From the NCBI GenBank assembly GCA_001787405.1, contig MFWV01000011.1, positions 48,857-112,856 on the forward strand: 64,000 nucleotides of DNA, given 5' to 3'. Below the pieces are notes generated by a model. It saw only the letters and a list, made by a program, of their open reading frames with translations, made no database searches and was not told where the DNA came from. This DNA is from Candidatus Pacebacteria bacterium RIFOXYA1_FULL_38_18 (GTDB lineage Bacteria; Patescibacteriota; Microgenomatia; UBA1400; PJMF01). A program made the translations under genes and the position numbers. Positions 14,481 to 52,581 of this stretch are shown here, in pieces. Positions within the stretch are counted from its first letter, which is position 1. Every line of letters begins with the position of its first letter.

Positions 14481-14503
14481 CTTCTGAATTTCAATTAATT
14501 TAA

Positions 14504-14902: not shown

Positions 14903-15025
14903 GATTCTCCTTTTATTAATTTCTAAATTTTTTTACCCTAAAACAAGATTGCTGATCATTATACTCATATCTTGCCATAAACGTCAAAACATTATCAGTT
15001 CGCTTTTTCCAGTCAATCTCGAATT

Positions 15026-15367: not shown

Positions 15368-15372
15368 GTTTT

Positions 15373-16208: not shown

Positions 16209-16220
16209 AATTTGGACTCC

Positions 16221-33184: not shown

Positions 33185-33222
33185 ATAGAAGCTAAAATTA
33201 AAATGGCAAAAGAAAATAATTT

Positions 33223-37554: not shown

Positions 37555-37576
37555 TGCATTGGTTGAGTTGATCAAT

Positions 37577-38620
37577 TTATTCAGGCAATAGAATCTCATC
37601 AGCTTCTGACAAGCCTGATAAAACCTCTATTTTTTCTTCTGTTTCCATTCCAGTAACAAGCTCCCGCTCTTCATAGGTATTTTTACCAGTGCGAAGATCA
37701 ACATAGACTTTTTCATCACGTTCTCTAGTGGCAATCAAAGGAACGGTGAGAACATTTGCTTTTTCTTCTATTTTTATCTCAACATCCCCATTCATGCCCA
37801 ACCGATATTTATTCAAGCTATCTATCTGATCAATGGGCATTTCTACAGCAAAAACTGTACCGCTAGCAGACAAGGTGCTCTGATAAGCAATGTAATTTAT
37901 GAAACTATCTATGTTTTCATCAGCATATGCATCCAGACTAATTACGGTTGATTGATTGGTCTGAATCAAAGAAATGTCTGCTTCGTCTACTAATGCTCGG
38001 AAAATAAGTGTTTTAGGATTGACGATCAGAAAAGAATCAGTTGCTAGTAGTTGTATGCCAGACACATTGGTCGGGGATTGAACTAAAATGCCATCAATGG
38101 GTGAAGACATCACGGTATTGGCTACAGTAATAGCTGCTATTTCCAGATCTATGACTGAATTTTCCAGATCTAATTGATTTTTTTCTACAGTACGGTTTTC
38201 CTCCTGATCTATTGTTCTGTCTTTGACATCATCAAGTTGTTGATCCCAATCCAGACGTTCTTTGGAATAAAGATTTAAATATTTTTCTTTACTTTTGGCA
38301 ACGCTGGCAGCATCAATTTGAGCAATTGTTTGCCATTTTTTTACCGAATCACCCTCTTTAGCTCCCAAATAAGTAACTTTACCACCAGCTAGAAAGCGTA
38401 AAGAAGCTTTTTCTTTGGCATCAATTACACCAGAAACCTCCAATGTTTTTATCAAATTTTCTCTAGTAGGAGAGATAAAAATAAGTTGTTCTTGATCTTG
38501 TGATTTAGCCAGAACCAGGCGACCGGCAACCAACAAGATAACTAAACCAATAATTATCCACCAGCGCTTTGTTTGCCAGAGATTTTTTAGTTTATTTAAA
38601 AACGGTTTAAAAAATTTCAT
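37577..38620 (-). CDS. efflux periplasmic adaptor / membrane-fusion protein (HlyD/MacA-like)
   Basis: 347 aa. N-terminal TM, then coiled-coil and beta-barrel-like regions. First gene of a three-gene efflux operon. Confidence 0.7.
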   Translation of the reverse strand: MKFFKPFLNKLKNLWQTKRWWIIIGLVILLVAGRLVLAKSQDQEQLIFISPTRENLIKTLEVSGVIDAKEKASLRFLAGGKVTYLGAKEGDSVKKWQTIAQIDAASVAKSKEKYLNLYSKERLDWDQQLDDVKDRTIDQEENRTVEKNQLDLENSVIDLEIAAITVANTVMSSPIDGILVQSPTNVSGIQLLATDSFLIVNPKTLIFRALVDEADISLIQTNQSTVISLDAYADENIDSFINYIAYQSTLSASGTVFAVEMPIDQIDSLNKYRLGMNGDVEIKIEEKANVLTVPLIATRERDEKVYVDLRTGKNTYEERELVTGMETEEKIEVLSGLSEADEILLPE

Positions 38621-38815: not shown

Positions 38816-39523
38816 TTAGAGCAAGAGTAGTAGTAATGCTCCTATTCCCAGAGTGGCTAAACCAACTTGTAGATAATTTAGCCAGTCAGCAGGACCGCTT
38901 TTGTATAATTCTTCAGGATAATCAGGTTGTCCGTCCGCAACAGATGCGGAAGGTGTTGAGGTTGGAGCAGAAGTAGGCGTTAGTGTAGTTGTTGGTGTAG
39001 TAGTTGGTGTAGTCGTTGGCGTAGTAGTTGGTGTAGTCGTTGGCACTGGCTCTTCACAACAACTAGCAACTGTAGGATTGGCAATACAGGCATCTTTATA
39101 ATCTTCTACTGCACAGTATTTTTCTCCATCATCAGCAGTAATACAGACCAAGTCGCCAGCGCAGTCAGTATCGGTTCCACAAGGAGTGTAACCACACTCA
39201 CTAGGTTCAGCTGGCTCTAATACAGTAAAGGTCAAAGTACAACTTGATTGTCGAATAATAGAGGCTTCTGGGAAAGATTGCGGAGCACTAGGAGCTACTG
39301 GCTCTTGACTCAAGTATTGTTTTTGAGCAATCAATACGCCCACCAAACCAATAGCAAAAAACACGATCAGAATCAAAATTGTCCAGATTGTTCTGGCTAT
39401 GGGTGGTTTTTGCGGAGGAACAGCCCGTTCTTTGGCGTAACGCTTGGCAAATTCCTGTTGCTTTGGCGTTGAACTAGTCATTGGGGCTTGGTTGGCTGGT
39501 GGGTTTTGATAAGTGTTTTCCAT
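38816..39523 (-). CDS. cell-surface protein: N-terminal signal-anchor, Cys-rich module, (PTTT)n linker, conserved C-terminal GPADWLNYLQVGL-TM tail
   Basis: Start taken at MENTYQ, 4 nt after the upstream stop. PTTTPTTTPTTTPTTT linker. C-terminus KSGPADWLNYLQVGLATLGIGALLLLLL is paralogous to the tail of 40681..41589. Confidence 0.6.
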   Translation of the reverse strand: MENTYQNPPANQAPMTSSTPKQQEFAKRYAKERAVPPQKPPIARTIWTILILIVFFAIGLVGVLIAQKQYLSQEPVAPSAPQSFPEASIIRQSSCTLTFTVLEPAEPSECGYTPCGTDTDCAGDLVCITADDGEKYCAVEDYKDACIANPTVASCCEEPVPTTTPTTTPTTTPTTTPTTTLTPTSAPTSTPSASVADGQPDYPEELYKSGPADWLNYLQVGLATLGIGALLLLLL

Positions 39524-39527
39524 CAAT

Positions 39528-40544
39528 TTATTCACAAGTACTTGGTGTATAAGGTTCCCAATCACAGATAGTAGTGTTTGATGAGTTTGTATAACAAACA
39601 GCACATTGCACTGCATAACTTCCAGCTAGTTCAATGTCGTAACTTATTCCCCAGCTATTTGATATAAGTTGCAAAGGCGAATCGTGGTGATTACTGCCAC
39701 ATGGTTCCCATATTTTGAATGAATAGAAGTATTCATCATTATCTATGGGAGTAGTAGCCGAACAAACAAAATTAACAGTAGTTTCACCGGGTATAAAGCC
39801 AGCATCGTCTTCACCATTCAACGCAATATTTGTTCCACTAGTAGGATCTAACATTGTTATACTATGACATTGTGGACCGACGGGTGATGTAGGTGTGGGA
39901 GTAGATGTAGGTGTGGGAGTTGGTGTAACGGAAGGAGTTGGTGTTGGGGTTGGCGTGTTGTCGCAGGTAGAATCATATTCACAGGTACTATAACGAATTT
40001 TCTGCACTTGATAAGTGCCATTGGCCCCAGTGCAAAAATTACCATCTTTCATACAATCGAAAATCCAAATCTGGCACCTATCTGTTCCTACACATCTTGT
40101 GTCTACACAATGATCTGCATATTCGCTACAACCAGAAGGACAACTACTCACAATATCATCCTCAAATTGTGGTCTATGATAGCAAGCATTATTGTTTACG
40201 CTACCACCTGAAGGATAACTAGTTGGAGTGGGAGTGGGTTCTTCTCCTGCTTTAATAGGAGTGGGAGTGGGTTCTTCTCCTGCTTTAATAGGAGTGGGAG
40301 TCGGTTCTTCTCCTGCTTTGGTAGGAGTTGGAGTGGGAGTGGGTTCTTCTCCTGCTTTATAAGCCTGCTGGCGAACGTCCTGACTTTGTTTGGTTAAAAA
40401 TAAACCTACGGCCGCTCCTATAAGGAGCACTAATAAAACTATACCACCCATCCAGAGTGACAATGTTTTTTTTTGGGGACTAGAAAATTTACTAAAGTCT
40501 TTATTTGGTTGTGGACTGATAAAACTAGAATTATTTTCTGACAC
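39528..40544 (-). CDS. cell-surface protein: N-terminal signal-anchor, KAGEEPTPTPI tandem repeats, large Cys-rich domain
   Basis: 338 aa. TM GGIVLLVLLIGAAVGLFL, then QDVRQQAYKAGEEP shared with 40681..41589. About 20 Cys in the C-terminal half. Confidence 0.6.
   Translation of the reverse strand: MSENNSSFISPQPNKDFSKFSSPQKKTLSLWMGGIVLLVLLIGAAVGLFLTKQSQDVRQQAYKAGEEPTPTPTPTKAGEEPTPTPIKAGEEPTPTPIKAGEEPTPTPTSYPSGGSVNNNACYHRPQFEDDIVSSCPSGCSEYADHCVDTRCVGTDRCQIWIFDCMKDGNFCTGANGTYQVQKIRYSTCEYDSTCDNTPTPTPTPSVTPTPTPTSTPTPTSPVGPQCHSITMLDPTSGTNIALNGEDDAGFIPGETTVNFVCSATTPIDNDEYFYSFKIWEPCGSNHHDSPLQLISNSWGISYDIELAGSYAVQCAVCYTNSSNTTICDWEPYTPSTCE
40225..40360. repeat. 33-nt in-frame tandem repeat (about 4 copies) encoding KAGEEPTPTPI
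   Basis: GGAGTGGGAGTGGGTTCTTCTCCTGCTTTAATA recurs head-to-tail with one or two substitutions. Confidence 0.7.
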
Positions 40545-40680
40545 AGTGTTAATAATTCTTCGCTTTATTTCAAAACCATTTTTATATAAGTGAAGAATCT
40601 TTCTCCAGTATATAGAACTTTTTAGGTAAAGGTCAACTAAGAACGCTTGGGAATTTTTTTATTTTAATTGATGAGTAATT

Positions 40681-41589
40681 TTAAATGAAGAGCAGTAACA
40701 AAGCTCCAATTCCCAACATGCCCAAGCCAATTTGCAAGTATTTTAGCCAATCTTCTGGTCCGGTTTCAGGCAAAGTGCTGGGAAGAGTGGGCTGATCATC
40801 CTGATAGCCAGTGGTACCAGTGGTGGTACCAGTAGTCGTAGTTTCAGTATAGGCGAGAGTATCGGTATTTTCATCAGTCTCATCAGTTCTAGTATAGGCA
40901 AGAGTATCGGTATTTTCATCAGTGTCATCAGTGGTGCTAGTTGGAGTGGGAGGAGTTGGGGTAACAGTCGTTGTAGTAGTGGTGCTAGTTGGAGTGGGAG
41001 GAGTTGGGGTAACAGTCGTTGTAGTAGTGGTGCTAGTTGGAGTGGGAGGAGTTGGGGTGATAGTAGTTCCGCTAGTTGGAGTGGGAGTTGAGATGACAGT
41101 AGTTCCACTAGTGGGAGTGGGAATCGGTTCCTCTCCCGCTTTGGTAGGGTCTTCTCCTGCTTTAATAGGAGTGGGAGTCGGTTCCTCTCCTGCTTTGGTA
41201 GGGTCTTCTCCTGCTTTGGTAGGGTCTTCTCCTGCTTTAATAGGAGTGGGAGTCGGTTCCTCTCCCGCTTTGGTAGGGTCTTCTCCTGCTTTATAAGCCT
41301 GCTGGCGAACGTCCTGACTGATTTGAGTAAGATATAAACCAGCTCCACCACCTATGATGATAATCAATAATCCTATCAAGGCAATGATAGTGTTTTTTGA
41401 CAATTTACCCTTTTTCTTTGGTGGTTGAGTTGAAGAGGGGGTAGCAGTTTCTGATTTATTTGGAACTTTTTCCTCGTTCTTTGTTTGTGCGCTAGTTGGC
41501 TCGCTTATATTTTCCTTTGGAAGATCAGTCGGCAACTCTGGAGGCAAAGAATCTGTAGGCTGGGGTGTAGAACCAATAACGTTGATCAT
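40681..41589 (-). CDS. LPXTG-type cell-surface protein with KAGE(D/E)PT repeats and poly-Thr/Pro stalk
   Basis: N-terminal signal-anchor. KAGEDPT / KAGEEPTPTPI repeats. TTTTTTVTPTPPTPTS triplicated. C-terminus LPETGPEDWLKYLQIGLGMLGIGALLLLFI. Confidence 0.65.
   Translation of the reverse strand: MINVIGSTPQPTDSLPPELPTDLPKENISEPTSAQTKNEEKVPNKSETATPSSTQPPKKKGKLSKNTIIALIGLLIIIIGGGAGLYLTQISQDVRQQAYKAGEDPTKAGEEPTPTPIKAGEDPTKAGEDPTKAGEEPTPTPIKAGEDPTKAGEEPIPTPTSGTTVISTPTPTSGTTITPTPPTPTSTTTTTTVTPTPPTPTSTTTTTTVTPTPPTPTSTTDDTDENTDTLAYTRTDETDENTDTLAYTETTTTGTTTGTTGYQDDQPTLPSTLPETGPEDWLKYLQIGLGMLGIGALLLLFI
41105..41300. repeat. in-frame tandem repeats (21-nt and 33-nt units) encoding KAGEDPT / KAGEEPTPTPI, plus a thrice-repeated roughly 57-nt Thr/Pro unit at 40930-41100
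   Basis: GGTAGGGTCTTCTCCTGCTTT and GGAGTGGGAGTCGGTTCCTCTCC(T/C)GCTTTGGTA units. GGTGCTAGTTGGAGTGGGAGGAGTTGGGGTAACAGTCGTTGTAGTAGT occurs three times. Confidence 0.65.
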
Positions 41590-41644: not shown

Positions 41645-42757
41645 TTATGAACTAGAGAGGTGTAAAGAAGAAGTTATGGTTTGATATTTATTTCTGATAT
41701 TTATGAATATTGCTGCGAAAAAAAATGCCATAATCCGCGGTCTTATGAGGCGAACCAAAGAAGAATCATTTTTAATAATTAATTTGAGAATATTTAGTCT
41801 GATAAGAATTTTTTTAATTTTTGGTTCATATTTTTTAAGATGCCAAAACTTCAAAGGAGGAAACTCAGCGAACCACTCGATTGGCAATAAATGAGCCAAT
41901 ATGAGAATTTTCCAAGATGTATTTTTACTAATAAAACTTGGAGTTGAGTATCTAAAGAAACAATTGCTCAAAATTATCATCAACCAGGCCTCATTTTGAA
42001 ACTGATATTGTTTTGCTAATTGTAAAAAATTAGACCATTGACTTGGTTTTTTATAGGTTTGAGTTAATTTTCCGATTTCATAAAGCGTGCCCAGACCCGT
42101 TGCTAAATCATTGAATAAAAAACGAATGCACAAAGACAGTAATTGATAGTTTTTATTTTGAATGTGGTGATTGTGTTTTGTGTTGTTCAATAGTGCTGTG
42201 GAAAATTTCCGCACAATTAGGATCTCTTGCGCATTGAGAGTGCCAAAATGTGGATGTGCAATCATGCTATGAATATCAAGATTTAAATAACGAGCCTTAG
42301 AATAAGTAATTTCTTTGGGCGGATAAATGGTTTTTTTATAACCCTGATTGGTTAACCATTGATCAATAATCATCATGCCCTGCTTGTTGGTAAGCAAATC
42401 AAGATCATTAGTAAGAAATAATTGCTGATTTAGTTTGTTTTTAAAATCCTTAAAAAAAATACCTTTTATTTTTGTTTTCTCCAAAAAAGAAATTAGACGT
42501 TGTTTTTCTTTTTCATATAACAAGCTGGAAAAAATGCTATTTTTTTGATGTTTGATTAGTTTGTTTTTAAAAGATTTATTCAAATGTTTTTGACAATTTT
42601 GACAGTTTGTAAAGTGATCTAAGGCATGGAAAACTTTATTAAACATTGCTTTTTCATAGAGTTTGCTAGTGCTTTTTTTAACTAAATTGATTGGAGGACA
42701 AACAGAGGAATTGTTTTGCAATAAAAAAACCAAGATTTCTATATCGGCATTTAACAT
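41645..42757 (-). CDS. uncharacterised nucleotidyltransferase (pol-beta superfamily, NTP_transf_5-like)
   Basis: 370 aa. hhxDhDhh metal-binding motif TNDLDLLTN. Size and composition fit the PF14907-type family often found in peptide-modification clusters. No HMM was run. Confidence 0.45.
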   Translation of the reverse strand: MLNADIEILVFLLQNNSSVCPPINLVKKSTSKLYEKAMFNKVFHALDHFTNCQNCQKHLNKSFKNKLIKHQKNSIFSSLLYEKEKQRLISFLEKTKIKGIFFKDFKNKLNQQLFLTNDLDLLTNKQGMMIIDQWLTNQGYKKTIYPPKEITYSKARYLNLDIHSMIAHPHFGTLNAQEILIVRKFSTALLNNTKHNHHIQNKNYQLLSLCIRFLFNDLATGLGTLYEIGKLTQTYKKPSQWSNFLQLAKQYQFQNEAWLMIILSNCFFRYSTPSFISKNTSWKILILAHLLPIEWFAEFPPLKFWHLKKYEPKIKKILIRLNILKLIIKNDSSLVRLIRPRIMAFFFAAIFINIRNKYQTITSSLHLSSS

Positions 42758-42760
42758 AGA

Positions 42761-43702
42761 GTGATTATAATCGTTGTTATGATATCTGTTTTGATTGCTA
42801 CTAAAGAACGGCCAGATTCATTACTTGTGTGTCTTCAATCAATTGTCTCCAATCAATTCACTCAGTACGAAGTGATTGTTATTGATCAGAGCAATGTTGT
42901 CAGTGCGCTAATCAAACAATATCTTAAAAAGCATCATCGCATACATTTTTATCATCTGCCAAATAGGGGTAGGGAGAGGGGCAAAAGTTATGCCCTACAA
43001 CAAGGATTGATGAAAGCAAAAGGAGAAATCATTGCTTTTACAGACGATGACTGCATAGTGGATAAAAAATGGTTAAAGATTCTTTGGCAAGGTTTTGCCC
43101 AAAACAAATGTGATGGTCTATTTGGTCAGGTTTTACCATATCAGCCAGCTCAACATGCTGATGAAACTTGCCCCTGTACAATGCGTTTTGCAAAAAAAGA
43201 ATTTGTTCGTCAACCGCGCTACCATGTTTCCATTGGTTACGGCAATAACATGGCTTTTAGAAAGCAAGCTCTTGATGAGATTGGTTCACCAAAAACCTGG
43301 CTCGGTCCCGGATCAATTGGTTCGAATGCGGAAGATGCGGAGCTTACCCTACGGGCATTATTTGCCAAAAAAATTATTTTGAGATATCCAAAATCTATTG
43401 TTTATCACAATCGTTGGTTGAATGCTCAAGAAATGAAAGAACAGCAACTCTCTTACACTCAAGGAGAAGCGGCTTGTTATGGCTATTTTTCCTTTCTTGG
43501 ATCAAATTTTTGCAAACAAATATTAATTAGAGGAATCAAAGCCAATCTTCAGAATTTAAAACGCAATCTATTGTCAGTTTTTAGTTTTAACAAAGGTAAG
43601 CGGACGCGAAACAACGTTTATTGGAATTTTCGATCATTACTAGCTAGTGCACGAGGATTGAGTGTAGGATTTTGGTTTTTTTTAACAGAGTCTTTAAAAT
43701 AG
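42761..43702 (+). CDS. soluble glycosyltransferase family 2
   Basis: VLIATKERPDSLLVCLQSI, VIDQSN and AFTDDDC are GT-A motifs. No TM. Confidence 0.7.
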   Translation: MIIIVVMISVLIATKERPDSLLVCLQSIVSNQFTQYEVIVIDQSNVVSALIKQYLKKHHRIHFYHLPNRGRERGKSYALQQGLMKAKGEIIAFTDDDCIVDKKWLKILWQGFAQNKCDGLFGQVLPYQPAQHADETCPCTMRFAKKEFVRQPRYHVSIGYGNNMAFRKQALDEIGSPKTWLGPGSIGSNAEDAELTLRALFAKKIILRYPKSIVYHNRWLNAQEMKEQQLSYTQGEAACYGYFSFLGSNFCKQILIRGIKANLQNLKRNLLSVFSFNKGKRTRNNVYWNFRSLLASARGLSVGFWFFLTESLK

Positions 43703-43703
43703 T

Positions 43704-44699
43704 TTGATTAAAATTATGTCAATATCAGCTTCAATTATTATTCCAACCAAAGAGAGATTTGAAACTCTCCAGCATTGTTTATTGGCTACAATTAAACAAT
43801 TATCCAAAGAGGACGAAGTAATGGTGGTAGAAAATGGTCAAGCTTATCAAAAAACTAAACACTTAATTAATATTTTAGCCAAAAATCACCAAATAAGTTA
43901 TGTTCATGAATCACGACTTGGACCAGCTTTTGCTCGCAATAAAGGAATTAGTTTGGCTCGCAATGAAATCTTGATTTTTTTGGATGATGATTGTGTGCCT
44001 GGTCCGGGCTGGTTGAAAGCAATTAAAAAGCGTCATGAAAATGAAAAAAAACACCAGCAAACAGTGGTTTTTCAGGGAAAAATTAATTATGTTTATAAAA
44101 AATCGAATGCATTTGTTGAGTTATTTCATTTAAGAAATCGGATGGATTGGCAAGTAATTCGGAAAACTCCGGGATGGAAAATGGGGAAATTCATAAATTT
44201 TTTAAATGCTGGAATTTTTTCTGTTCGAAGGTCGGTTTTAGTTAAAAATAAGATTAAATTTAATGAACTTTTTTTTCCTTTTGTTGGTGAAGAGAGAGAT
44301 CTGACAGCGCAATTACATTTGCATGGTATTTCCATTGTTTATGCATCGGAAATACAAGTAACACATTACAAAGATAGAGGAAGCGTAGTGAATTCATTAA
44401 AAAGATCTTTTCAGGCGGGATTGGCACAAGAAATACTGAACGTTTTATATAAAACCAATCAATCAACAAAATCTTTGTTTAAGAAATCTTTTCGAAAAGA
44501 AAAAAATGGAATAATCGCTGAATTGTTAAAACAATTTAATCAGCAGTCACTATTTACCATTACAGGTATGATCATTACTTATTTGCGATTGAGTATGTTG
44601 GTCCTGGGAAGAGTTTATGGCAAATTTTGGTGTCTGTTGCAAAAAAACAAGCTTTATGAACATAGAAAAAAGCTATTTTTATCAATCACTAAGAACTAA
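43704..44699 (+). CDS. soluble glycosyltransferase family 2
   Basis: SIIIPTKERFETLQHCL and IFLDDDCVPGPGWL match the GT-A fold. No TM. One nt after the previous GT2 stop. Confidence 0.7.
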   Translation: MIKIMSISASIIIPTKERFETLQHCLLATIKQLSKEDEVMVVENGQAYQKTKHLINILAKNHQISYVHESRLGPAFARNKGISLARNEILIFLDDDCVPGPGWLKAIKKRHENEKKHQQTVVFQGKINYVYKKSNAFVELFHLRNRMDWQVIRKTPGWKMGKFINFLNAGIFSVRRSVLVKNKIKFNELFFPFVGEERDLTAQLHLHGISIVYASEIQVTHYKDRGSVVNSLKRSFQAGLAQEILNVLYKTNQSTKSLFKKSFRKEKNGIIAELLKQFNQQSLFTITGMIITYLRLSMLVLGRVYGKFWCLLQKNKLYEHRKKLFLSITKN

Positions 44700-45168
44700 T
44701 AAGCTTGCGATATAGATGTTTTAAAAAAGGATATTTATAAAGATTTTTTATTTTTAATAAATTTGGAAAATGGTGATTCAGTCGTGAATACCAAGTCAGA
44801 ATAAAAACAAAAAACCGCGAGCGATTATTTTCCAAAAAGATAGTATGCGAAGGATATATGATTTTTATAGCTTTTCCCATGAGTTTTTTAATATCAACCT
44901 GGTTATCATAATCTAATTTATTATCGCCCTTGGTAATAACATATTTTTTTTTAATAGCCATTAAGCGATGAAGAATTATTTGATTGTTTTTTTTAAAAGC
45001 TACAATATCGCCAACCGTATATTCTTGAGAATAATTAAGTTTTAAAACAACTTTTGCACCATGTTTAATTAAGGGTTCCATGCTATAACCCTTGCTAGTG
45101 GTTTGTATAATAAGCGAATGTTTATTAGTAATGAATTGAGTAATTAATGAAACATTTTTCATTGTCAT
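44689..45168 (-). CDS. S26-family signal-peptidase-like serine protease (Ser/His SipW/ER-type), no obvious TM
   Basis: GYSMEP (nucleophile Ser). ILHRL (His replaces the Lys of the KR box). KGDNKLDYDNQ (GDNxxxSxDSR-like). Start ambiguous; the ORF track gives 45234. Confidence 0.5.
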   Translation of the reverse strand: MTMKNVSLITQFITNKHSLIIQTTSKGYSMEPLIKHGAKVVLKLNYSQEYTVGDIVAFKKNNQIILHRLMAIKKKYVITKGDNKLDYDNQVDIKKLMGKAIKIIYPSHTIFLENNRSRFFVFILTWYSRLNHHFPNLLKIKNLYKYPFLKHLYRKLISS

Positions 45169-45185
45169 TGTGCATTGCTGATTTG

Positions 45186-46334
45186 ATGATTTTACTATAC
45201 ACGAACACAAATCAAGAGCATGATTTTTTGGCAAACAAATATGAGGACTATATAGTAACGGACAGTCAAGAAAAAACTGCAGTAGTATCTATTGCTTGCG
45301 GTTTTGAACATCGTGAGAAAGAAATTCCCAGCTTTGTTTTTAAAGAAAGTGTAATAGAGAGGTTTGGTTTATTTAGTGAGTTTTTCCGCAAAATATTAAT
45401 GGGAGTATTAAATACTCATGATGGAGCTTTATTGCATGCCAGTTCTATTGTTTATAAAAATCAGGGCTTTATTTTTATTGGTCATGAAGGAGCAGGCAAA
45501 ACAACTATTCGCAAATTACTAAATAACTACGTTTCTTTGGGCGATGATACAGCTATTATACGAATTAGAGGGGAAAAGACTTATCTATATGGTTCTCCAC
45601 TTTATCAACGAACTAAGCGTTCTTATCCGAATAAACGAGTTTTGATCTGTGGTATTTTTTCTTTAAAACAAGCAAAATATGCTCTAATTAATGATCTTGA
45701 TCTCAATCAGCAAGTGAAAGCGCTGTCGTCAAATGTTTTTTTATCTGGCTTAAAAGAATTTAACAATGAAAATAGAAAATTAAGTTTGACATTATTTACT
45801 TTGGGACAGCAACAACTTGTTCATAATTTATCTTTTGCCAAAACATCCCCAGTATCAAAAGTACTAAAAATATTTGCTCAAAAACCCTGGCAAAAAAAAT
45901 CAATCAAGAACCTATTGGTTCAAGCCAGCACTGTCTTTGTTCAAGAACTCCAAGATCATGTTGTTTGGTCGAAGGGTGTTGCCGATCGCGACTTTTTAAC
46001 TCAATGTTTGATAATTAATGAACATAGTTGGATTTTTGAATTCGGTTCACAGCGAATTTTGAAAGTAATAGCAGATAAAATTATTGGAAATCAAGAAGAG
46101 GCTTATCATCATTCTCTTGTGTTTAAAAAAATTAAACAATTCAAAGAAATCAAGGTTTTGCCTACGATAGTTGTTGTTCGAAAAGAAAATAATTTTGTAA
46201 TTATTGATGGCAATCATCGGGCATTGGCTTGGTATTTGCATAATAAAAATAATTTAACTGGAGAAATTTTGGTGTTAGTAGGAGATTTAAAAAATAATTT
46301 TAAAGAAAATAGTAAAATTTTTGCTTATTTATAA
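45186..46334 (+). CDS. HPr-kinase-like P-loop kinase fused to a C-terminal ParB/Srx-like domain
   Basis: GFIFIGHEGAGKTTIRKLL...LGDD fits the HprK C-domain pattern GxxGxGKS/T...hhDD. C-terminal VIIDGNHRALAWYL is ParB-like. Start ambiguous; the ORF track gives 45147. Confidence 0.5.
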   Translation: MILLYTNTNQEHDFLANKYEDYIVTDSQEKTAVVSIACGFEHREKEIPSFVFKESVIERFGLFSEFFRKILMGVLNTHDGALLHASSIVYKNQGFIFIGHEGAGKTTIRKLLNNYVSLGDDTAIIRIRGEKTYLYGSPLYQRTKRSYPNKRVLICGIFSLKQAKYALINDLDLNQQVKALSSNVFLSGLKEFNNENRKLSLTLFTLGQQQLVHNLSFAKTSPVSKVLKIFAQKPWQKKSIKNLLVQASTVFVQELQDHVVWSKGVADRDFLTQCLIINEHSWIFEFGSQRILKVIADKIIGNQEEAYHHSLVFKKIKQFKEIKVLPTIVVVRKENNFVIIDGNHRALAWYLHNKNNLTGEILVLVGDLKNNFKENSKIFAYL

Positions 46335-46369
46335 TTTTTGATTTTTTATAAAACTAATTAAGGTTGAAC

Positions 46370-46915
46370 AATTATTTTCAAAAACTACCGAACAACGTCG
46401 ATTGTTGGGAGTTTGGGCACATCCAGATGACGAATCACTCAATATAGAAGAAATTTTGGCTCTAGCAAACAAAGCTAAAATAAATACGCAAATAATTTGT
46501 CTTATGGAGAAATGGGCTTATCTCAAAATAGTGCCTTAGGGACTCGAGGGCGAGATGGGAAATCTGGCAAGAAAGCGATCGGTCGTGGAAGCTTTATTTT
46601 AGCGTTCTGGAACAGGACATAAAACGTCTTTATAAACATTCCAGAAAACTAACGATTTGGAAAAATATGCTAAAAGCAGATTTTCAAATAAGTATTACCA
46701 AAACAACTGATCAAAAAATAACGGCCTGTTTAGCTCACGTCAGCCAGTTGTCAGTTCTCAACAAACCAATCCCATTAAAAATAATTTTTAAAATGTTTGA
46801 TAATGAGTATTTACATCTAGTAACTGCACAAAACAAATATAATTTTCAATTTGTGAATTTTTTCACTCAAAGGTATAATTATCGTGTCAAAAACAAAACC
46901 GAAGGCTTTTCATAA
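46370..46915 (+). pseudogene. decayed LmbE/PIG-L-family deacetylase gene (no start codon, frameshift)
   Basis: Hand translation of 46378.. gives EQRRLLGVWAHPDDESLNIEEILALANKAKINTQIICLMEKW, with the PIG-L AHPDDE motif, ending in a stop. The reading frame of ORF 46667..46915 continues it after a frame change. Confidence 0.4.
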
Positions 46916-46931
46916 TAAAAAGGAATATTTT

Positions 46932-47216
46932 ATGGCTAAAAAATTTGACGATAATACTATGATAAAAAGAATGCAGGGCATTGTTTATAAAGAAGTTGAA
47001 GGGGTGTTTTATATTTTGAACTATCAAACAGTAACATTGCACACACTCAATGAAACAGCTAGCTTTGTCTGGAAAGAATTGGCCAAACCCAAAACTATTA
47101 AACAATTAACTGAAACGATCGTTGATAATTTTTCAACAACGAAAACTCAAGCAAAACAAGATCTTGAAAAATTCATTATCAAGTATAAAAAACTTGGCTT
47201 TCTTGAACTGATATAG
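46932..47216 (+). CDS. PqqD-family protein (RiPP recognition element-type peptide chaperone)
   Basis: 94 aa from MAKKFDDN with RBS AAGGAA 8 nt upstream. LNETASFVWKEL, LTETIVDNF and AKQDLEKFIIKYKKLGFLEL match the PqqD/RRE consensus. Confidence 0.65.
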   Translation: MAKKFDDNTMIKRMQGIVYKEVEGVFYILNYQTVTLHTLNETASFVWKELAKPKTIKQLTETIVDNFSTTKTQAKQDLEKFIIKYKKLGFLELI

Positions 47217-47242
47217 TTATCAAATAAAAATTAAAAAATTAT

Positions 47243-47341
47243 TTACTGGTATGATTCCAGAGTAAAAACATCTATTTCAATTTTTTCAACTTTTTCCGCT
47301 GGAGCCTTGTAGGCTTTTTTGGTTTTTTGGTTTTTGTTCAT
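47243..47341 (-). CDS. candidate 32-aa peptide (possible modified-peptide precursor)
   Basis: AGGAGA is 4 nt upstream of the ATG on the minus strand. Product MNKNQKTKKAYKAPAEKVEKIEIDVFTLESYQ. Convergent on pqqD-like; 50 nt downstream of the previous minus-strand gene. Confidence 0.4.
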   Translation of the reverse strand: MNKNQKTKKAYKAPAEKVEKIEIDVFTLESYQ

Positions 47342-47393
47342 AAAATCTCCTATTTTTATTTGGTATTTTATTACTTGATAAAGTATTTCATTT

Positions 47394-48317
47394 TTAAGAA
47401 TTAATGTCAACTTTGTATTGAAAAATATTTTTTTCATTTAATTGGTTATTAATCTTTTTTTTGTTCGAGAAAATCCCAATAAAATTTCCTTTGCATTTAT
47501 AAATTTGAGTATAACGGGCGATTTTAATATATTTTTCAAAAAATGAACGATGATCGATTGATGATTTTTTCAAACCAAAATTGACAATGACGTACTCACT
47601 AGATGCGAGAATTTTTTTAATAAAAATACTATTTTTTATCTTTGGAACAATAAGATGATCGACAAAGAGATCAACAATTATAAGACCATATTGCTTTTTA
47701 TTTTGCGAAGTATATGCAAAAGCATCAGCTTGAATTAATTTAATTTTAGAAATTTTTGATCCAAGAAAACTTTTTCGCAAGGGTAAAAAATATTTTTTAG
47801 CTACTTTAATCATAATGGGAGAAATTTCTACTACATCGCTGGAGATTTCAAGACTAGTCAATAATTCCAATGGAATTACTGCTCCGCCCCCACCTAGCAC
47901 TAATGCAGAGCGTTTTTGAGGTTGATTTTTTTTAATTAATTTACGAATGAAGTCTAAATACAACCAAGAATTATGATTTTTTAAATAAATAGAAGAATAA
48001 GATACATTAGATTTCGGCTGGCAAATTGTTCTCAATGATTTGGATGGATGTAAAGGAAAAAAACGATCTCTAACAATGAAATGTTCCTTATTTTTTTCGA
48101 TTATTTCTTTTTGAAAAACAGTTATACCTTTAGTTAACCCTAAAAAAACTAAAATAAGAATAATATTAATAAAAACCAAAGTAATAACGACGAAAATTTC
48201 TAAGGGAAGTTTAAATACTAAATTAAAAATTAACCAAATGATGAATGAAGATAAAAAAAATAAGATTTTTTTATAACCAATAGAGGTTTTGGTAATCCAA
48301 AAAGGTTTTATTTTCAT
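47394..48317 (-). CDS. membrane-anchored spermidine-synthase-like (PABS fold) protein
   Basis: Two N-terminal TMs. VLGGGGGAVIPLEL glycine-rich motif. GLIIVDLF. Confidence 0.55.
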   Translation of the reverse strand: MKIKPFWITKTSIGYKKILFFLSSFIIWLIFNLVFKLPLEIFVVITLVFINIILILVFLGLTKGITVFQKEIIEKNKEHFIVRDRFFPLHPSKSLRTICQPKSNVSYSSIYLKNHNSWLYLDFIRKLIKKNQPQKRSALVLGGGGAVIPLELLTSLEISSDVVEISPIMIKVAKKYFLPLRKSFLGSKISKIKLIQADAFAYTSQNKKQYGLIIVDLFVDHLIVPKIKNSIFIKKILASSEYVIVNFGLKKSSIDHRSFFEKYIKIARYTQIYKCKGNFIGIFSNKKKINNQLNEKNIFQYKVDINS

Positions 48318-48362: not shown

Positions 48363-49112
48363 TCAATGACGAACCAGAACATTTTTTTTATAAGCTTCTA
48401 TAGCCCTTATTCCATCATTTTGAATAAGTTTTCCTTTTTCCAGCCAAATGATTCTCGTGCAATGATCTTTTAGATAATCCAACCAATGACTGACGCTAAT
48501 AATTGTTTTACCTTGTTTGTAAAATTGATTGATTTTTTGCAAAGATTTTTTTCTAAACTCTTCATCTCCCACAGCTATTGCCTCGTCCAAAAGTAAAATA
48601 TCTGGATCAGAGTGAACAGCAATAGAAAATCCTAGTCTCAAGGACATTCCAGAAGAATAGGTGTAAAGGGGAGAGTCAATAAATTTTTTTAGGCCGCTAA
48701 ACTGAATAATTTTTTTATATTTTTTTTCTATTTCTGGTCTCGTCATGCCAACAATAAGTCCATTGAGAAAAATGTTTTCTTCTCCAGTGAGTTCAGGATG
48801 AAAACCCGCTTCAAGTTCTATTAATGAAACAATTCTTCCTTTAGTGATAATTTTTCCAGTTGTGGGAGCGGTTATGCCAGCGATCATTTTGAGAACAGTT
48901 GTTTTTCCAGATCCATTGGGCCCAATGATTCCCACTTTTTCTCCACTATATATTTCGAAAGAAACATCTTTTAGAGCCTCAAATTTTTCTCTAGATTCCA
49001 GTCCCAAAAATGATCCTACCAGAGTTGGTTTTTGGTGTTTAAGAACGTATTTTTTACAGACTTTTTCAAAATAGATAACTGTTTGTTTTTTGCGTTTCAT
49101 TTTTACATCCAA
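48363..49112 (-). CDS. ABC transporter ATP-binding protein, polysaccharide/teichoic-acid exporter type (Wzt/TagH-like)
   Basis: Walker A GPNGSGKTT. Signature YSSGMSLRLGFSIAV. Walker B ILLLDEAIAVGD. Confidence 0.85.
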   Translation of the reverse strand: MDVKMKRKKQTVIYFEKVCKKYVLKHQKPTLVGSFLGLESREKFEALKDVSFEIYSGEKVGIIGPNGSGKTTVLKMIAGITAPTTGKIITKGRIVSLIELEAGFHPELTGEENIFLNGLIVGMTRPEIEKKYKKIIQFSGLKKFIDSPLYTYSSGMSLRLGFSIAVHSDPDILLLDEAIAVGDEEFRKKSLQKINQFYKQGKTIISVSHWLDYLKDHCTRIIWLEKGKLIQNDGIRAIEAYKKNVLVRH

Positions 49113-49858
49113 TCATCAAAATATTTTTGTTCTTTTTTAAATACCAGAATTCCCAGAATGGTAATTATGATCGTAGAGAAAATTGGCAACCAAAGAGCGT
49201 CTGGAGAAAGAAGATAATCTTGAATACCAAAAGAAACTCTAAACAGCTGAATGATAGCAGTGAGTGGATTTAAAAATAAGATTAGTTTAATTTTCTCTGG
49301 AATTAACTGAATTGAGTAAATGATTGGAGTGGCATAAAACCAAATAGGAATTATGGCTCTGACAAGAAAACTCATGTCTCTAAACTTCACATTAAGACTA
49401 GCAAAGAATAAAGAAATGCCGATTGTAAAAATAAAAATCCAAAAAATTGCCAGAATGAGTGTGAAAAAATTGATCATGGTTAAAGAAAATGGAAAAACCA
49501 AAATAAAGCCCACTATAAGATGAAAGAGATTTGATAGAACCAAAGAAAGAATCAGTGATTCTCTAGGAAAAACTGCTTTTTTGATCAAATGTCTTTCATC
49601 GACAAACAAAGAAACAGCTTTGGAAAAACTGATTGAGAAAAAATTCCAGGGCAAAAGTCCTAGAAAAAGATATAAAAAGTAATTTTCAGTTCTAATTCCT
49701 GGGAAAAATTGCAATACAAACCCAATAACCAACATTTGCAATAAAGGGTTGATTATCAGCCACAAAAACCCCAGTACCACATGTTTATATCTACCCTTGA
49801 GCTCTCTGGTAGTTAGCGCAAGCGTAAAATCCAGCCATCTTTTCCATTTTTTTATCAC
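49103..49858 (-). CDS. ABC-2 type transport permease (Wzm/TagG-like)
   Basis: 251 aa, 6 TM. Overlaps the cognate ATPase gene. Confidence 0.75.
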   Translation of the reverse strand: MIKKWKRWLDFTLALTTRELKGRYKHVVLGFLWLIINPLLQMLVIGFVLQFFPGIRTENYFLYLFLGLLPWNFFSISFSKAVSLFVDERHLIKKAVFPRESLILSLVLSNLFHLIVGFILVFPFSLTMINFFTLILAIFWIFIFTIGISLFFASLNVKFRDMSFLVRAIIPIWFYATPIIYSIQLIPEKIKLILFLNPLTAIIQLFRVSFGIQDYLLSPDALWLPIFSTIIITILGILVFKKEQKYFDDWM

Positions 49859-51002: not shown

Positions 51003-52581
51003 GATTTGTTGTCTTTTGGTCAAATAAAGCAAGGCCTACATATAGAAAAAAATATGAAGAGAGTTCTGGATGATTGAGAAAGATGGGATAAAACATGGCA
51101 CACAGTAAATAAATGCCGGCAGCCAAGTTATATTCTTTGATAATGCCAGTTTTTAATCCCAAAAAAAATGGTTTGACGGTCAAAAAGCCAAATAATAAAA
51201 AGAGCGTTAGACCAACAATTCCGGTTTCGGCTAATAATTGAAAAAATAAATTATGCGGATAAGTAGGATCAAAGGCAAGTTGCTCTCCTTTAAATTCAGT
51301 TGCTAAATAATAAGGAGAAAGATTGATTCCCACTCCGAACAACGGATTATCCAACGAAAGGCGAGTGGCGTAGTACATCATGCGCAAGCGATAGGTAGCA
51401 CTACCATATTGAGTAAATACGTCTGATAAGGTTTCTATTCGGCGAGCTAAATAAGGGGCTAGGGCAATAGTAATGATTATTAAAATCGCAGCGAAAACAC
51501 CCATTACTTTTGACGGAATCCTTATTTTATTTTTTTTATTCGATTGCTGCCAGCGCTTCCAACTCCAAAAAGCTCCCACCAACCAGATGCCATACAAAAT
51601 TCGACTACCAGTAAAAACCAAGGCTAGACTACCCAAACCAATTGATAAAAGAGTAATTATTTTTGAAGCATTAATAATTCTTTTTTTACTCAAAAGAGCG
51701 GGAAGCAAAATAGCCATTTGCATCAATAAAAAAGTACCTAGAATGCTGGGTTCAAAAAAAGTACCGGCAAGTCTTAATAAACCTCTGTTTTCCGAAGATA
51801 AAATACCAAGTTGGGCTCCGGGTAAGTAAACCTCAATGTCTTTTCCCAGCGGTCCACCAGCCAAGCGTTGAACAAGCACCCAGCCAGCTTCAAACAATAA
51901 CACGGCCACAACAACGCTAAAAATAATTTTTCTCAATTGAGTTTTCTGTTTGGCAAATAATAGAAAAGGTAAAGCTATCAGCATCATCATTCTGACTAGT
52001 TGCAAGGAGGACAATAGACCAATCTCAGGAACAATGCTGAAAGTGCCACTCAAAATAGTCCAAACAATGAACAAAAAAAACAACCAAAGCGATTTGTTTT
52101 TTTGAAATGATAACTGAATTTGCTTGGCAGTCTGTTTGCCACGCAAGTACAAATAACCCAATAAACCCAAGAAAATATCTGCAATATAGATTGGAAAAAA
52201 ATAACTAATATCAAACCACGCCCAACGTTCTATATCTTCTTTGGGAAGCAACATTATTTGATAGGCTCGGCCTTTTGGAAATAAAAGAGTGGCAATCAAT
52301 CCAGCAAAAAGTGATAATTTCAAATTTTTGGTGATGCGATAAATTATTAACCAATAAAGGAAAGTAAATAAAATGAGAGTGCGATTGCTTGTGCTAAAAT
52401 ACAGGCTAACATAATAAAGGAGTGTAACAAAAAAAAGCCTGAGCGAAGGAGCTGAAACCATTACAATGGTTCGCCCAATAAAGCTTTTTGATATGGTACG
52501 CAATAGTTTCATGAAGTTCATTATACCTAAACGTTTTTTGGGAAAATTTAATATCTTTGACCTGGTTATAGCGGTTGCCAT
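50995..52581 (-). CDS. polytopic membrane protein, O-antigen ligase/polymerase (Wzy_C)-like
   Basis: 528 aa, more than 10 TM, with a periplasmic loop in the C-terminal third. The true start is probably an internal Met (about 52461) because of divergent overlap with 52466..53329. Confidence 0.4.
   Translation of the reverse strand: MATAITRSKILNFPKKRLGIMNFMKLLRTISKSFIGRTIVMVSAPSLRLFFVTLLYYVSLYFSTSNRTLILFTFLYWLIIYRITKNLKLSLFAGLIATLLFPKGRAYQIMLLPKEDIERWAWFDISYFFPIYIADIFLGLLGYLYLRGKQTAKQIQLSFQKNKSLWLFFLFIVWTILSGTFSIVPEIGLLSSLQLVRMMMLIALPFLLFAKQKTQLRKIIFSVVVAVLLFEAGWVLVQRLAGGPLGKDIEVYLPGAQLGILSSENRGLLRLAGTFFEPSILGTFLLMQMAILLPALLSKKRIINASKIITLLSIGLGSLALVFTGSRILYGIWLVGAFWSWKRWQQSNKKNKIRIPSKVMGVFAAILIIITIALAPYLARRIETLSDVFTQYGSATYRLRMMYYATRLSLDNPLFGVGINLSPYYLATEFKGEQLAFDPTYPHNLFFQLLAETGIVGLTLFLLFGFLTVKPFFLGLKTGIIKEYNLAAGIYLLCAMFYPIFLNHPELSSYFFLYVGLALFDQKTTNHV

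What the first reader, a model, noticed from the sequence alone, without database searches (positions are those of the whole stretch)
41645..47437. Cryptic peptide-modification (RiPP-like) island lacking any known core cyclase
Eight adjacent elements sit in 5.8 kb. (1) An NTP_transf_5-like nucleotidyltransferase. (2, 3) Two soluble GT2 enzymes. (4) A Ser/His-type S26 peptidase with no TM. (5) An HPr-kinase-like P-loop kinase fused to a ParB/Srx-like domain. (6) A decayed LmbE/PIG-L deacetylase. (7) A standalone PqqD-like RRE. (8) A convergent 32-aa ORF with a near-ideal RBS. A standalone RRE plus an HprK-like kinase plus a PF14907-type nucleotidyltransferase is the accessory-gene set described for phosphorylated lasso peptides of the paeninodin type. 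Here there is no lasso cyclase (Asn-synthetase-like C) and no B2 transglutaminase-type protease. There is also no radical-SAM, YcaO or LanB/LanM enzyme. Either this is a new route that decorates a small peptide by phosphorylation, nucleotidylation and glycosylation and trims it with an S26-type protease, or it is a decaying cluster. The pseudogene supports decay.
Basis: partly seen in the sequence, partly recalled or inferred. Interest (0 to 1): 0.8.

Follow-up and report, generated by a model that had tools for sequence, protein, structure and literature searches.

The report
Linear phosphorylated-peptide (LPP-like) cluster in CPR
This is a real gene cluster in a tiny groundwater bacterium (Pacebacteria, CPR) that most likely phosphorylates, glycosylates and trims a conserved 32-residue peptide; it is a new variant of the "linear polyphosphorylated peptide" pathway, described in 2026 and thought then to be confined to Bacillota.

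Summary
The 32-aa ORF is a genuine precursor. Twelve distinct relatives sit at the same place in syntenic CPR loci. They share the leader K-x-x-Y-x-x-P-x-E-K-V-E-K-I and have hypervariable C-terminal tails.

The core gene set matches the Linear Polyphosphorylated Peptide (LPP) family of Popov et al. 2026 (PMC13381572):
- a SipW/archaeal-type signal peptidase
- a discrete PqqD RRE
- an HprK/ScmC-type kinase
- a PF14907 nucleotidyltransferase
- a YxxP leader, no lasso cyclase or B2, and a glycan-locus setting

The RRE keeps the residues by which LppB binds YxxP. Ser30 of the peptide lies 20 residues after the Tyr; the phospho-Ser of LppA lies 19 after it.

The CPR form differs in several ways:
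- cores of only about 2-10 residues
- an ABC-2 exporter instead of an MsbA-type one
- a tightly linked GT2, a PIG-L deacetylase and a membrane SpeE-like protein
- a sulfiredoxin/ParB-fold domain on the kinase
- peptidase-nucleotidyltransferase fusions in some relatives

Only PIG-L is decayed. It is an accessory gene, so the cluster as a whole is not decaying.

The parts
41645..42757 (-). PF14907 (NTP_transf_5) nucleotidyltransferase, counterpart of LppN/PsmN
   Evidence: Pfam E 4e-15. DLD and LDIH motifs intact. Homologues lie in syntenic loci. In L003, L005 and L008 it is fused to the S24/S26 peptidase domain.
42761..43702 (+). GT2 glycosyltransferase 'a', an extra copy in this lineage
   Evidence: PF00535 E 3e-24 with a DDD motif. 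Only L008 has a closer match to this copy than to GT2b.
43704..44699 (+). GT2 glycosyltransferase 'b', the copy conserved next to the cassette
   Evidence: PF00535 E 2e-21. Orthologues at 25-41% identity sit adjacent in L001, L002, L007, L009, L010, L013 and L014. A GT2 gene is called at the same position in L020 and L022.
44689..45168 (-). Soluble archaeal/SipW-type signal-peptidase-like leader peptidase, counterpart of LppS (ORF open to 45234)
   Evidence: TIGR02228 E 4e-13 and Peptidase_S24 E 5e-6. Ser29 in GYSMEP and His67 in HR match LppS S29 and H68. The S-M-x-P...H-R spacing of 37-38 residues holds in 10 of the 11 CPR homologues examined (the pattern scan gave no reliable His for L020). 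No TM segment.
45147..46334 (+). Two-domain kinase: an HprK/PEPCK-fold P-loop kinase (ScmC family, about residues 1-250) plus a C-terminal sulfiredoxin/ParB-fold domain (about 290-395)
46360..46915 (+). PIG-L/LmbE de-N-acetylase pseudogene
   Evidence: AHPDDE motif and later family segments spread over three frames with stops. Identical over the aligned parts in four separate assemblies. Intact orthologues lie at this position in L001, L002, L007, L010, L014, L020 and L022. Absent in L008, L009 and L013.
46932..47216 (+). Discrete PqqD-type RiPP recognition element, counterpart of LppB
   Evidence: PF05402 E 2e-11; lasso_PqqD models E 2e-6. Best PDB hits are LppB 9x8z_B (E 0.003) and PbaB1 9x90_B. 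LppB N33 and D70 are invariant and F74 is F or Y in 10 CPR RREs.
47243..47341 (-). Precursor peptide gene: MNKNQKTKKAYKAPAEKVEKIEIDVFTLESYQ
   Evidence: AGGAG RBS. Twelve distinct homologues at the same locus position. A profile search gave hits from E 5e-10 to 2e-5 in 5.8 billion proteins. Against L023, codons 8-27 have 9 synonymous and 0 non-synonymous changes, while every core codon differs.
47382..47410 (-). Promoter-like site (TTGACA-17-TGnAATACT) upstream of the precursor gene. Weak evidence.
   Evidence: Scan hit, though the number of hits in the region is no higher than in shuffles. The element and the RBS are conserved in L023 while neighbouring bases vary.
47394..48317 (-). Membrane-anchored spermidine-synthase-fold (SpeE-like) protein, accessory
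   Evidence: PF01564 E 5e-7. N-terminal TM region at residues 13-70. Linked to the cassette in L001 and L002, and to ScmC in L003 and L004.
48363..49112 (-). ABC transporter ATPase (Wzt/TagH-like)
   Evidence: Orthologues at 53-65% identity next to the cassette in L001, L002, L007, L009 and L014. ABC_tran is called at the same position in L020 and L022.
49103..49858 (-). ABC-2 type permease
   Evidence: PF01061 on the identical contigs L016 and L017. Orthologues at 41-50% identity in the same loci.

Best explanation
This is an intact biosynthetic cluster for a ribosomally made, post-translationally modified peptide (RiPP) of the linear phosphorylated (LPP) type, in Candidatus Pacebacteria (Patescibacteria/CPR).

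Proposed mechanism:
1. The 32-aa precursor is bound through its Y11-x-x-P14 motif by the discrete PqqD RRE. This step is inferred from conserved contact residues.
2. The RRE presents the C-terminal tail to the ScmC/HprK-fold kinase. The kinase puts one or more phosphates on a Ser 19-20 residues after the Tyr, here Ser30. This is inferred by analogy with LppK acting on LppA Ser3.
3. The soluble SipW-type serine peptidase, also RRE-dependent, removes the leader, most likely after Thr27 (VFT|LESYQ; compare FET|AQS in LppA). It could instead cut one or two residues earlier.
4. The PF14907 enzyme, working closely with the peptidase, and the adjacent GT2 enzyme(s) build a sugar on the phosphate, as PsmN does in pseudomycoidin. 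In relatives a PIG-L enzyme would then de-N-acetylate a HexNAc. That step has been lost here.
5. The membrane SpeE-like protein and the ABC-2 transporter, which lie immediately upstream of the precursor on the same strand, finish and export a very short phosphoglycopeptide of about 5-7 residues.

Shown here: gene content, folds, catalytic and binding residues, synteny, and precursor conservation with a hypervariable core. Inferred: all of the chemistry and the order of steps.
For: Domains:
- The LPP paper defines the family by TIGR02228 + PqqD + HprK-like (TIGR04249/ScmC, TIGR04352, TIGR04355) + NTP_transf_5 in polysaccharide loci, without a cyclase. The window has all four families.

RRE and peptidase:
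- The RRE's best solved relatives are LppB and PbaB1.
- The LppB residues that bind YxxP (N33, D70, F74) are conserved in 10 of 10 CPR RREs.
- The peptidase Ser and His align with LppS S29 and H68.

Precursor:
- Twelve distinct homologues carry an invariant Y..P.E.
- The leader is under purifying selection (9 synonymous, 0 non-synonymous changes) while the core is replaced.
- A Ser or Thr lies 19-20 residues after the Tyr in 8 of 12 peptides; in LppA the phospho-Ser is the 19th.

Coupling and context:
- S24/S26-NTP_transf_5 fusion proteins occur in three relatives.
- PsmN is required for adding hexose to phospho-Ser.
- No lasso C/B2, rSAM or YcaO among the Pfam-scanned ORFs of the window.
- The region is identical in four separately assembled contigs.
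Against: - There are no expression or mass-spectrometry data.
- The PIG-L gene is a pseudogene, so the ancestral product cannot be made unchanged.
- Two of the 12 homologous peptides have no Ser (P0015 ...HTWWC, L009 ...LRGY), yet LppK was strictly Ser-specific.
- Beyond YxxP the leader consensus differs from the LPP motif.
- The transporter is of a different type.
- TIGR02228 scores just under its curated cut-off.
- The RRE hit to LppB is weak (E 0.003) and barely better than the hit to the lasso RRE PbaB1.
- The GT2s, the SpeE-like protein and the ABC-2 transporter could belong to the surrounding glycan locus rather than to the peptide pathway.
Confidence: 0.75

Rival explanations
1. Peptide-primed glycoconjugate. 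The short peptide is not a free natural product. It acts as a phosphoserine-linked primer or anchor on which the neighbouring glycan machinery builds and exports a polymer that ends up on the cell surface. That machinery comprises the GT2s, GT4s, WecG/TagA, a Wzy_C ligase-like protein and the ABC-2 Wzm/Wzt-type exporter.
For: The cassette always sits inside a glycan locus. ABC-2, GT2, Wzy_C, DUF4330 and GT4 genes travel with it across CPR classes. The exporter is of the polymer-export ABC-2 type, not a peptide-type MsbA. In this window the precursor lies directly downstream of the transporter genes on the same strand. The LPP authors also note the capsule-locus context and could not find the final product.
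Against: No chemistry is known for such priming. Hypervariable cores fit a diffusible or antagonistic peptide better than a structural primer. The glycan genes could simply be neighbours.
Confidence: 0.12
2. Decaying, non-functional remnant of a once larger cluster (for example a lasso cluster) that has lost its core enzymes.
For: The PIG-L gene is frameshifted, and reproducibly so. No class-defining cyclase is present.
Against: All other genes are full length with catalytic motifs intact. The same cyclase-free architecture recurs in at least 12 loci across Beckwithbacteria, Shapirobacteria, Paceibacterota and Pacebacteria. The leader is under purifying selection. PIG-L is dispensable in three relatives. 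A cyclase-free pathway has been shown to work in Paenibacillus. The cores are too short for a lasso fold.
Confidence: 0.06
3. Ordinary phosphorylated lasso-peptide cluster (paeninodin or pseudomycoidin type) whose cyclase and B2 protease lie outside the window.
For: The kinase, PF14907 enzyme, RRE and YxxP leader are the accessory set of such clusters. The RRE hits lasso_PqqD models.
Against: No Asn_synthase or transglutaminase-like gene among the Pfam-scanned ORFs of the 64 kb window, nor among the genes called with precomputed Pfam hits around the cassette in relatives. A dedicated serine leader peptidase is present instead of B2. The tail after the leader is only about 2-10 residues, too short for a 7-9-membered macrolactam ring plus a threaded tail (own knowledge of lasso architecture).
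Confidence: 0.04

Closest known systems
Linear Polyphosphorylated Peptide (LPP) clusters of Bacillota: lppA-K-B-S-D-N of Paenibacillus alginolyticus (Popov et al., Nat Commun 2026, PMC13381572)
   Same: - SipW/archaeal-type signal-peptidase-like leader peptidase with the catalytic Ser and His at the same positions.
- Discrete PqqD RRE that keeps the YxxP-binding Asn, Asp and Phe.
- HprK/ScmC-type kinase and a PF14907 nucleotidyltransferase.
- YxxP leader about 10-11 residues from the N-terminus.
- A hydrophobic residue followed by Thr, then a Ser three residues further on (FET|AQS in LppA, VFT|LES here).
- No cyclase or B2, and an embedding in a polysaccharide locus.
   Different: - Host phylum is Patescibacteria; the paper states that LPP is restricted to Bacillota.
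- Precursors are 28-46 aa with cores of about 2-10 aa, against 35-200 aa (a 45-aa core in LppA).
- The leader consensus after YxxP is x-E-K-V-E-K-I, not x-V-L-x-H-Q-x-I-x-F-E-T.
- An ABC-2 (Wzm/Wzt-like) exporter replaces the MsbA-like one.
- GT2 is almost always adjacent, and PIG-L and a SpeE-like membrane protein are frequent.
- The kinase carries a C-terminal sulfiredoxin/ParB-fold domain in about 24 clusters at 50% identity.
- Peptidase-nucleotidyltransferase fusions occur in some loci.
Phosphorylated or glycosylated lasso peptides: paeninodin and pseudomycoidin (PMC6993621)
   Same: An HprK-like kinase acts on a Ser near the C-terminus of an RRE-bound precursor. A PF14907 enzyme (PsmN) is needed to add hexose to the phosphate.
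   Different: There is no macrolactam synthetase and no B2 cysteine protease, and the core is too short for a lasso. The Bacillota lasso leaders use WxxP, whereas this peptide has YxxP as in LPP.
SynChlorMet cassette (ScmC/ScmD, TIGR04248/9) and the HprK-related kinase A/B 'HPr-rel-A' cassettes (TIGR04352-5) of NCBIfam
   Same: The kinase is assigned to the ScmC family (PF27840). The RRE gives a weak ScmD hit (E 1e-4) and the kinase a weak HprK_rel_B hit (E 0.0016). These too are kinase + PqqD (+ nucleotidyltransferase) sets.
   Different: All hits fall far below the curated cut-offs. No ScmE/F radical-SAM/SPASM enzymes are in the window. Those cassettes have no described precursor or peptidase (own knowledge).

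Membership tests
LPP (linear polyphosphorylated peptide) RiPP clusters | Archaeal/SipW-type signal peptidase I homologue (TIGR02228) acting as leader peptidase, with catalytic Ser and His | tested here: met
   TIGR02228 is the best NCBIfam hit: E 4e-13, 49.7 bits, just under the 51.85 cut-off. Ser29 (SMEP) and His67 (HR) match LppS S29 and H68. The motifs hold in 10 of the 11 CPR homologues examined. Catalysis was not tested.
LPP (linear polyphosphorylated peptide) RiPP clusters | Discrete PqqD-type RRE with the YxxP-binding residues (LppB N33, D70, F74) | tested here: met
   PF05402 E 2e-11. The best PDB hit is LppB 9x8z_B. N and D are invariant and F is F or Y in 10 CPR RREs aligned to LppB.
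LPP (linear polyphosphorylated peptide) RiPP clusters | HprK-like kinase (the paper's category: TIGR04249/ScmC, TIGR04352, TIGR04355) | tested here: met
LPP (linear polyphosphorylated peptide) RiPP clusters | PF14907 NTP_transf_5 nucleotidyltransferase | tested here: met
   E 4e-15, above the gathering score.
LPP (linear polyphosphorylated peptide) RiPP clusters | MsbA-like ABC exporter in the core set | tested here: not met
   The linked transporter is a two-gene ABC-2 permease plus ATPase. No MsbA-type fused transporter is present in the window.
LPP (linear polyphosphorylated peptide) RiPP clusters | Precursor with a conserved N-terminal YxxP-containing leader and a variable C-terminus | tested here: met
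   Twelve homologous peptides have invariant Y..P.E and hypervariable tails.
LPP (linear polyphosphorylated peptide) RiPP clusters | Full leader consensus YxxPxVLxHQxIxFETxxS | tested here: not met
   Only Y, P, a hydrophobic residue plus Thr before the tail, and a Ser about 19-20 residues after Y are shared. The middle of the CPR leader is EKVEKI.
LPP (linear polyphosphorylated peptide) RiPP clusters | Poly-phosphorylation of a core Ser and RRE-dependent leader cleavage | not testable with these tools
   This needs expression and mass spectrometry. Only the positional analogy Ser30 to LppA Ser3 is available.
LPP (linear polyphosphorylated peptide) RiPP clusters | RRE, peptidase and kinase fall inside the published LPP clades | tested here: inconclusive
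   Only LppB (from the PDB) could be compared. It scored E 0.003, almost tied with the lasso RRE PbaB1 at E 0.0032. Sequences of LppS, LppK and LppN were not obtainable. The word-indexed search with the peptidase returned only two close hits.
Lasso peptides | Asn-synthetase-like macrolactam synthetase (C) and transglutaminase-like leader peptidase (B2) | tested here: not met
   Neither PF00733 nor a Transglut_core3-type hit was found in any Pfam-scanned ORF of the window, nor in the precomputed Pfam lists of related contigs. The rest of the genome was not examined.
Lasso peptides | Core long enough for a 7-9-residue ring closed on Asp or Glu, plus a tail | tested here: not met
   The tails after the conserved leader are only about 2-10 residues. 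The required length comes from own knowledge.
SynChlorMet (SCM) cassette | ScmC + ScmD together with radical-SAM/SPASM ScmE and ScmF | tested here: not met
   There is no radical-SAM gene among the scanned ORFs of the window. The ScmD hit is E 1e-4, 22 bits against a cut-off of 100. A rSAM/SPASM gene lies about 2.5 kb beyond the nucleotidyltransferase in L020 and L022 only.

The most novel reading that the evidence does not exclude
In these reduced-genome bacteria the ribosomal peptide may not be a secreted natural product. It may be the primer or anchor of a surface glycoconjugate. Its near-C-terminal Ser would be phosphorylated, and a sugar would be attached to the phosphate by the PF14907 and GT2 enzymes. 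The chain would then be extended, exported and ligated by the co-conserved ABC-2, GT4 and Wzy_C machinery. The Srx/ParB-fold domain on the kinase would act as a second phosphotransfer or nucleotide-binding module. This would be a gene-encoded peptide primer for envelope glycan synthesis.
Probability: 0.12. Interest if true: 0.85.

Novelty: new variant of a known kind. Interest (0 to 1): 0.55.

Why it matters
The LPP pathway was described only in 2026. Its final product and its role are unknown, and it was reported as confined to Bacillota.

The CPR variant shows that the pathway reaches into Patescibacteria, where few peptide natural-product pathways have been characterised.

It also offers practical handles on the open questions:
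- The cores are very short, which makes mass spectrometry simple.
- GT2 and PIG-L genes are tightly linked, which points to a HexNAc-derived sugar on the phosphate.
- Natural peptidase-nucleotidyltransferase fusions argue that cleavage and the still-unexplained PF14907 step are coupled.
- The kinase carries an extra sulfiredoxin/serine-kinase-fold domain that may bear on how several phosphates are added.

The hypervariable cores beside strictly conserved leaders suggest a role in cell-cell interaction for these symbiotic bacteria.

Tried and rejected
- Sequence-level support for the ParB call failed. Pfam on the C-terminal 116 residues gave only DndB at E 0.056. The first AF2 model, from 4 sequences, was poor (pLDDT 56). 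The question was settled only with a 23-sequence alignment.
- A PDB profile search with the kinase alignment found only generic P-loop matches.
- A PDB search with the peptide profile found nothing relevant, so the LppA leader is not detectably similar by HMM.
- The word-indexed protein search with the peptidase gave only two near-identical hits, so no link to LppS could be made.
- The genome and metagenome locus scans found only 3 and 6 loci because the patterns were narrow.
- No precursor could be found in L008. The contig starts at the edge of the cassette.
- The promoter and terminator scan gave counts no higher than in shuffles, so the precursor promoter is only a hint, supported by its conservation in L023.
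- Rfam found only a tRNA nearby.
- The hits of both GT2s to the mycofactocin MftF model (E about 1e-19 to 1e-20, about 70 bits against a cut-off of 280) were dismissed as generic GT2 similarity.
- Literature searches for PF14907, NTP_transf_5 and Patescibacteria + RiPP + PqqD found no description of this CPR cassette.

Full report
**Setting.** The window starts at dnaA/dnaN and has about 27-43% G+C. The small ORF at 47243-47437 is identical to a protein that NCBI names as coming from Candidatus Pacebacteria bacterium RIFOXYA1_FULL_38_18. Four separately assembled metagenome contigs carry the region at 99.8-100% identity. From 47.4 to 63.4 kb the window is a glycan-assembly locus. It holds an ABC-2 transporter, GT1/GT4 enzymes, Wzy_C, PMT_2, GT2-YdjC, WecG/TagA and a methyltransferase.

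**Observation.**
- PF14907 scores E 4e-15, the two GT2s E 3e-24 and 2e-21, and PqqD E 2e-11.
- The peptidase's best NCBIfam model is the archaeal-type signal peptidase I, TIGR02228 (E 4e-13). It also hits SipW. It has no hydrophobic segment. From the ATG at 45168 it has Ser29 (GYSMEP) and His67 (HR).
- By sequence the kinase shows only a P-loop plus LGDD. The collection's precomputed Pfam call is PF27840 'ScmC'. With 23 full-length homologues, AlphaFold2 gave a pLDDT-91 model.
- The LmbE/PIG-L remnant carries AHPDDE and later family segments in three different frames. Four assemblies show the same lesions.
- The 32-aa ORF has AGGAG 5 nt before its ATG.

**The small ORF is a real precursor.** In the closest relatives a small ORF lies at the same place, next to the PqqD gene. 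Genome and metagenome scans with the kinase, and a profile search with the peptides, brought the total to 12 distinct peptides. Loci retrieved only through the peptide (L020, L022) show the same neighbours.
- All 12 share K-x-x-Y-x-x-P-x-E and most share EKVEKI. The last 2-10 residues are unrelated (for example LESYQ, VTIE, STAE, GIPSDAI, VTTSDY, WWC, GEGGTAS).
- Against the near relative L023, codons 8-27 carry nine synonymous and no non-synonymous changes. Every codon after Thr27 differs.
- A conserved leader with a hypervariable core is the signature of a RiPP precursor.

**Synteny.** The following genes recur in Beckwithbacteria, Shapirobacteria, Paceibacterota and unnamed metagenome contigs: peptidase, kinase, (PIG-L), PqqD, precursor, GT2, ABC-2 pair and PF14907. 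Wzy_C and DUF4330 are often nearby.
- PIG-L is intact in seven loci and absent in three. Its decay here is therefore loss of an accessory step, not decay of the cluster.
- In three loci the S24/S26 domain is fused to the N-terminus of the PF14907 protein. That argues the two act together.
- More distant ScmC homologues in Patescibacteria sit with PqqD, PF14907 and SpeE-like genes, plus other tailoring enzymes such as YcaO/nitroreductase or QueC-PqqD.

**What it corresponds to.** Popov et al. (Nat Commun 2026, PMC13381572) started from SipW-like peptidases found beside lasso genes in Bacilli. [quoted passage not shown] These clusters often lack a cyclase and B2 and lie inside capsular polysaccharide loci. 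Their precursors carry YxxPxVLxHQxIxFETxxS.
- Their domain table uses TIGR02228, PqqD, NTP_transf_5 and TIGR04249/04352/04355. These are the same families found here.
- They showed that LppK puts up to four phosphates on core Ser3. LppS cleaves after Thr-1, needs the RRE and prefers phosphorylated substrate. LppN was silent in the heterologous host. The final product and its function remain unknown, and they state that LPPs are restricted to Bacillota.
- In pseudomycoidin, the PF14907 enzyme PsmN is required for adding one or two hexoses to the phospho-Ser.

**Direct comparisons that were possible.**
- The window RRE's best solved relatives are LppB (9x8z_B, E 0.003) and PbaB1 (9x90_B).
- The LppB residues that fix the Tyr and the Pro kink (D70, N33) and the Phe that divides the pockets (F74) are invariant or conservatively kept in 10 CPR RREs.
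- I rebuilt LppA from the mutagenesis primers as MEENTKREQKLYARPMVLSQQPVRFET|AQSWNK.... In LppA the Tyr is preceded by 11 residues and in the window peptide by 10. LppA has FET|AQS and the window has VFT LES. The phospho-Ser is the 19th residue from Tyr in LppA. A Ser or Thr lies at position 19 or 20 in 8 of the 12 CPR peptides, and in the window it is Ser30 at position 20.

**Mechanism.** The steps are set out under Best explanation. The firm parts are the parts list, the folds, the conserved binding and catalytic residues, the precursor and the absence of a cyclase. The chemistry is inferred from the Paenibacillus and Bacillus pseudomycoides work. Three points stay uncertain:
- The cleavage site is uncertain. 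After Thr27 is the LppA analogy. After position 15 from Tyr would fit the [IV]-[DE]-[VAT] pattern seen in several homologues.
- The acceptor residue is unclear in the two peptides that lack Ser.
- It is not established whether the GT2s, the SpeE-like protein and the ABC-2 transporter serve the peptide or the surrounding glycan pathway. The precursor lies directly downstream of the ABC-2 and SpeE-like genes on the minus strand. It also has a conserved promoter-like element of its own.

**Rivals.**
- An ordinary lasso cluster is unlikely. No C or B2 gene occurs among the Pfam-scanned ORFs of the 64 kb window or among the genes called around the cassette in relatives. A serine peptidase takes the place of B2, and the cores are too short.
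- A dead remnant is unlikely, given the intact motifs, the purifying selection and the recurrence of the architecture.
- The more adventurous reading, a peptide-primed surface glycoconjugate, is not excluded. It is favoured only by the constant glycan-locus context and the polymer-type exporter.

**Novelty and score.** The logic is known, although only since May 2026, so this is not categorically new. It differs from the described family in several ways:
- host phylum
- precursor size
- leader consensus
- exporter type
- constant GT2 and frequent PIG-L and SpeE-like partners
- the Srx/ParB-fold domain on the kinase, present in about 24 clusters at 50% identity out of 8,240 kinase-family clusters
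- peptidase-nucleotidyltransferase fusions

I rate it a new variant of a known kind, with interest 0.55.

Noticed in passing
window 38816-41589 (-): Three adjacent Pro/Thr-rich secreted proteins with repeated 'KAGEEPTPTP' units. Each ends in a hydrophobic tail preceded by LPETG (40681-41589) or a similar motif, which looks like sortase sorting signals. None has a Pfam hit.
   Followed up: partly
window 35603-38620 (-): A MacB-type ABC exporter (MacB_PCD/FtsX permease, ATPase and HlyD-like adaptor) about 3 kb upstream of the cluster. It could be an alternative peptide exporter.
   Followed up: no
L003 4481-5731, L005 6165-7439, L008 177-1685: Single proteins with an N-terminal S24/S26 peptidase domain fused to PF14907 NTP_transf_5.
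   Followed up: yes
L003 3325-12976 / L004: A different Patescibacteria cluster: ScmC-like kinase, a 536-aa SpeE-like protein, YcaO, nitroreductase, sulfatase, PAPS reductase, the S24-PF14907 fusion and PqqD. It looks like a hybrid azoline/phosphorylation RiPP-like island.
   Followed up: no
L005 8001-10282: An ScmC-like kinase lies next to a QueC-PqqD fusion protein and two small ORFs with a YxKPSIK motif. The ORFs are MKKSNNQKLIQAKKKYTKPSIKTSKIKINIQTWY and a 44-aa one.
   Followed up: no
L020 920-2050, L022 947-2047: A radical-SAM/SPASM gene lies about 2.5 kb beyond the nucleotidyltransferase (past Wzy_C) in two related loci. A Metallophos phosphoesterase and DUF4330 also travel with the cassette. 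DUF4330 is in the window as well, at 52466-53329.
   Followed up: no
L019 605-644, window about 44719-44741: One of the four otherwise identical assemblies differs by a rearrangement or insertion of a few tens of bases where the 3' ends of GT2b and the peptidase gene meet.
   Followed up: no
window 13948-16712 (-) and 29794-32133 (+): Four paralogous small membrane proteins that resemble TrbC/VirB2 pilins (by eye), plus a TraG/VirD4/HerA-like ATPase. These look like type IV secretion or conjugation-like components, as are common in CPR genomes.
   Followed up: no
window 32318-35183 (+), 12623-13938 (+): By eye from the translations, not HMM-checked: mevalonate-pathway kinases and decarboxylase, an IPP-isomerase-like Nudix protein and undecaprenyl-diphosphate synthase. 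If correct, the organism can make the polyprenyl carrier that the neighbouring glycan locus needs.
   Followed up: no
L008 3935-4951 (-): A 'reversibly glycosylated polypeptide' (PF03214, E 1e-49) gene sits beside the cassette in the Paceibacterota locus.
   Followed up: no
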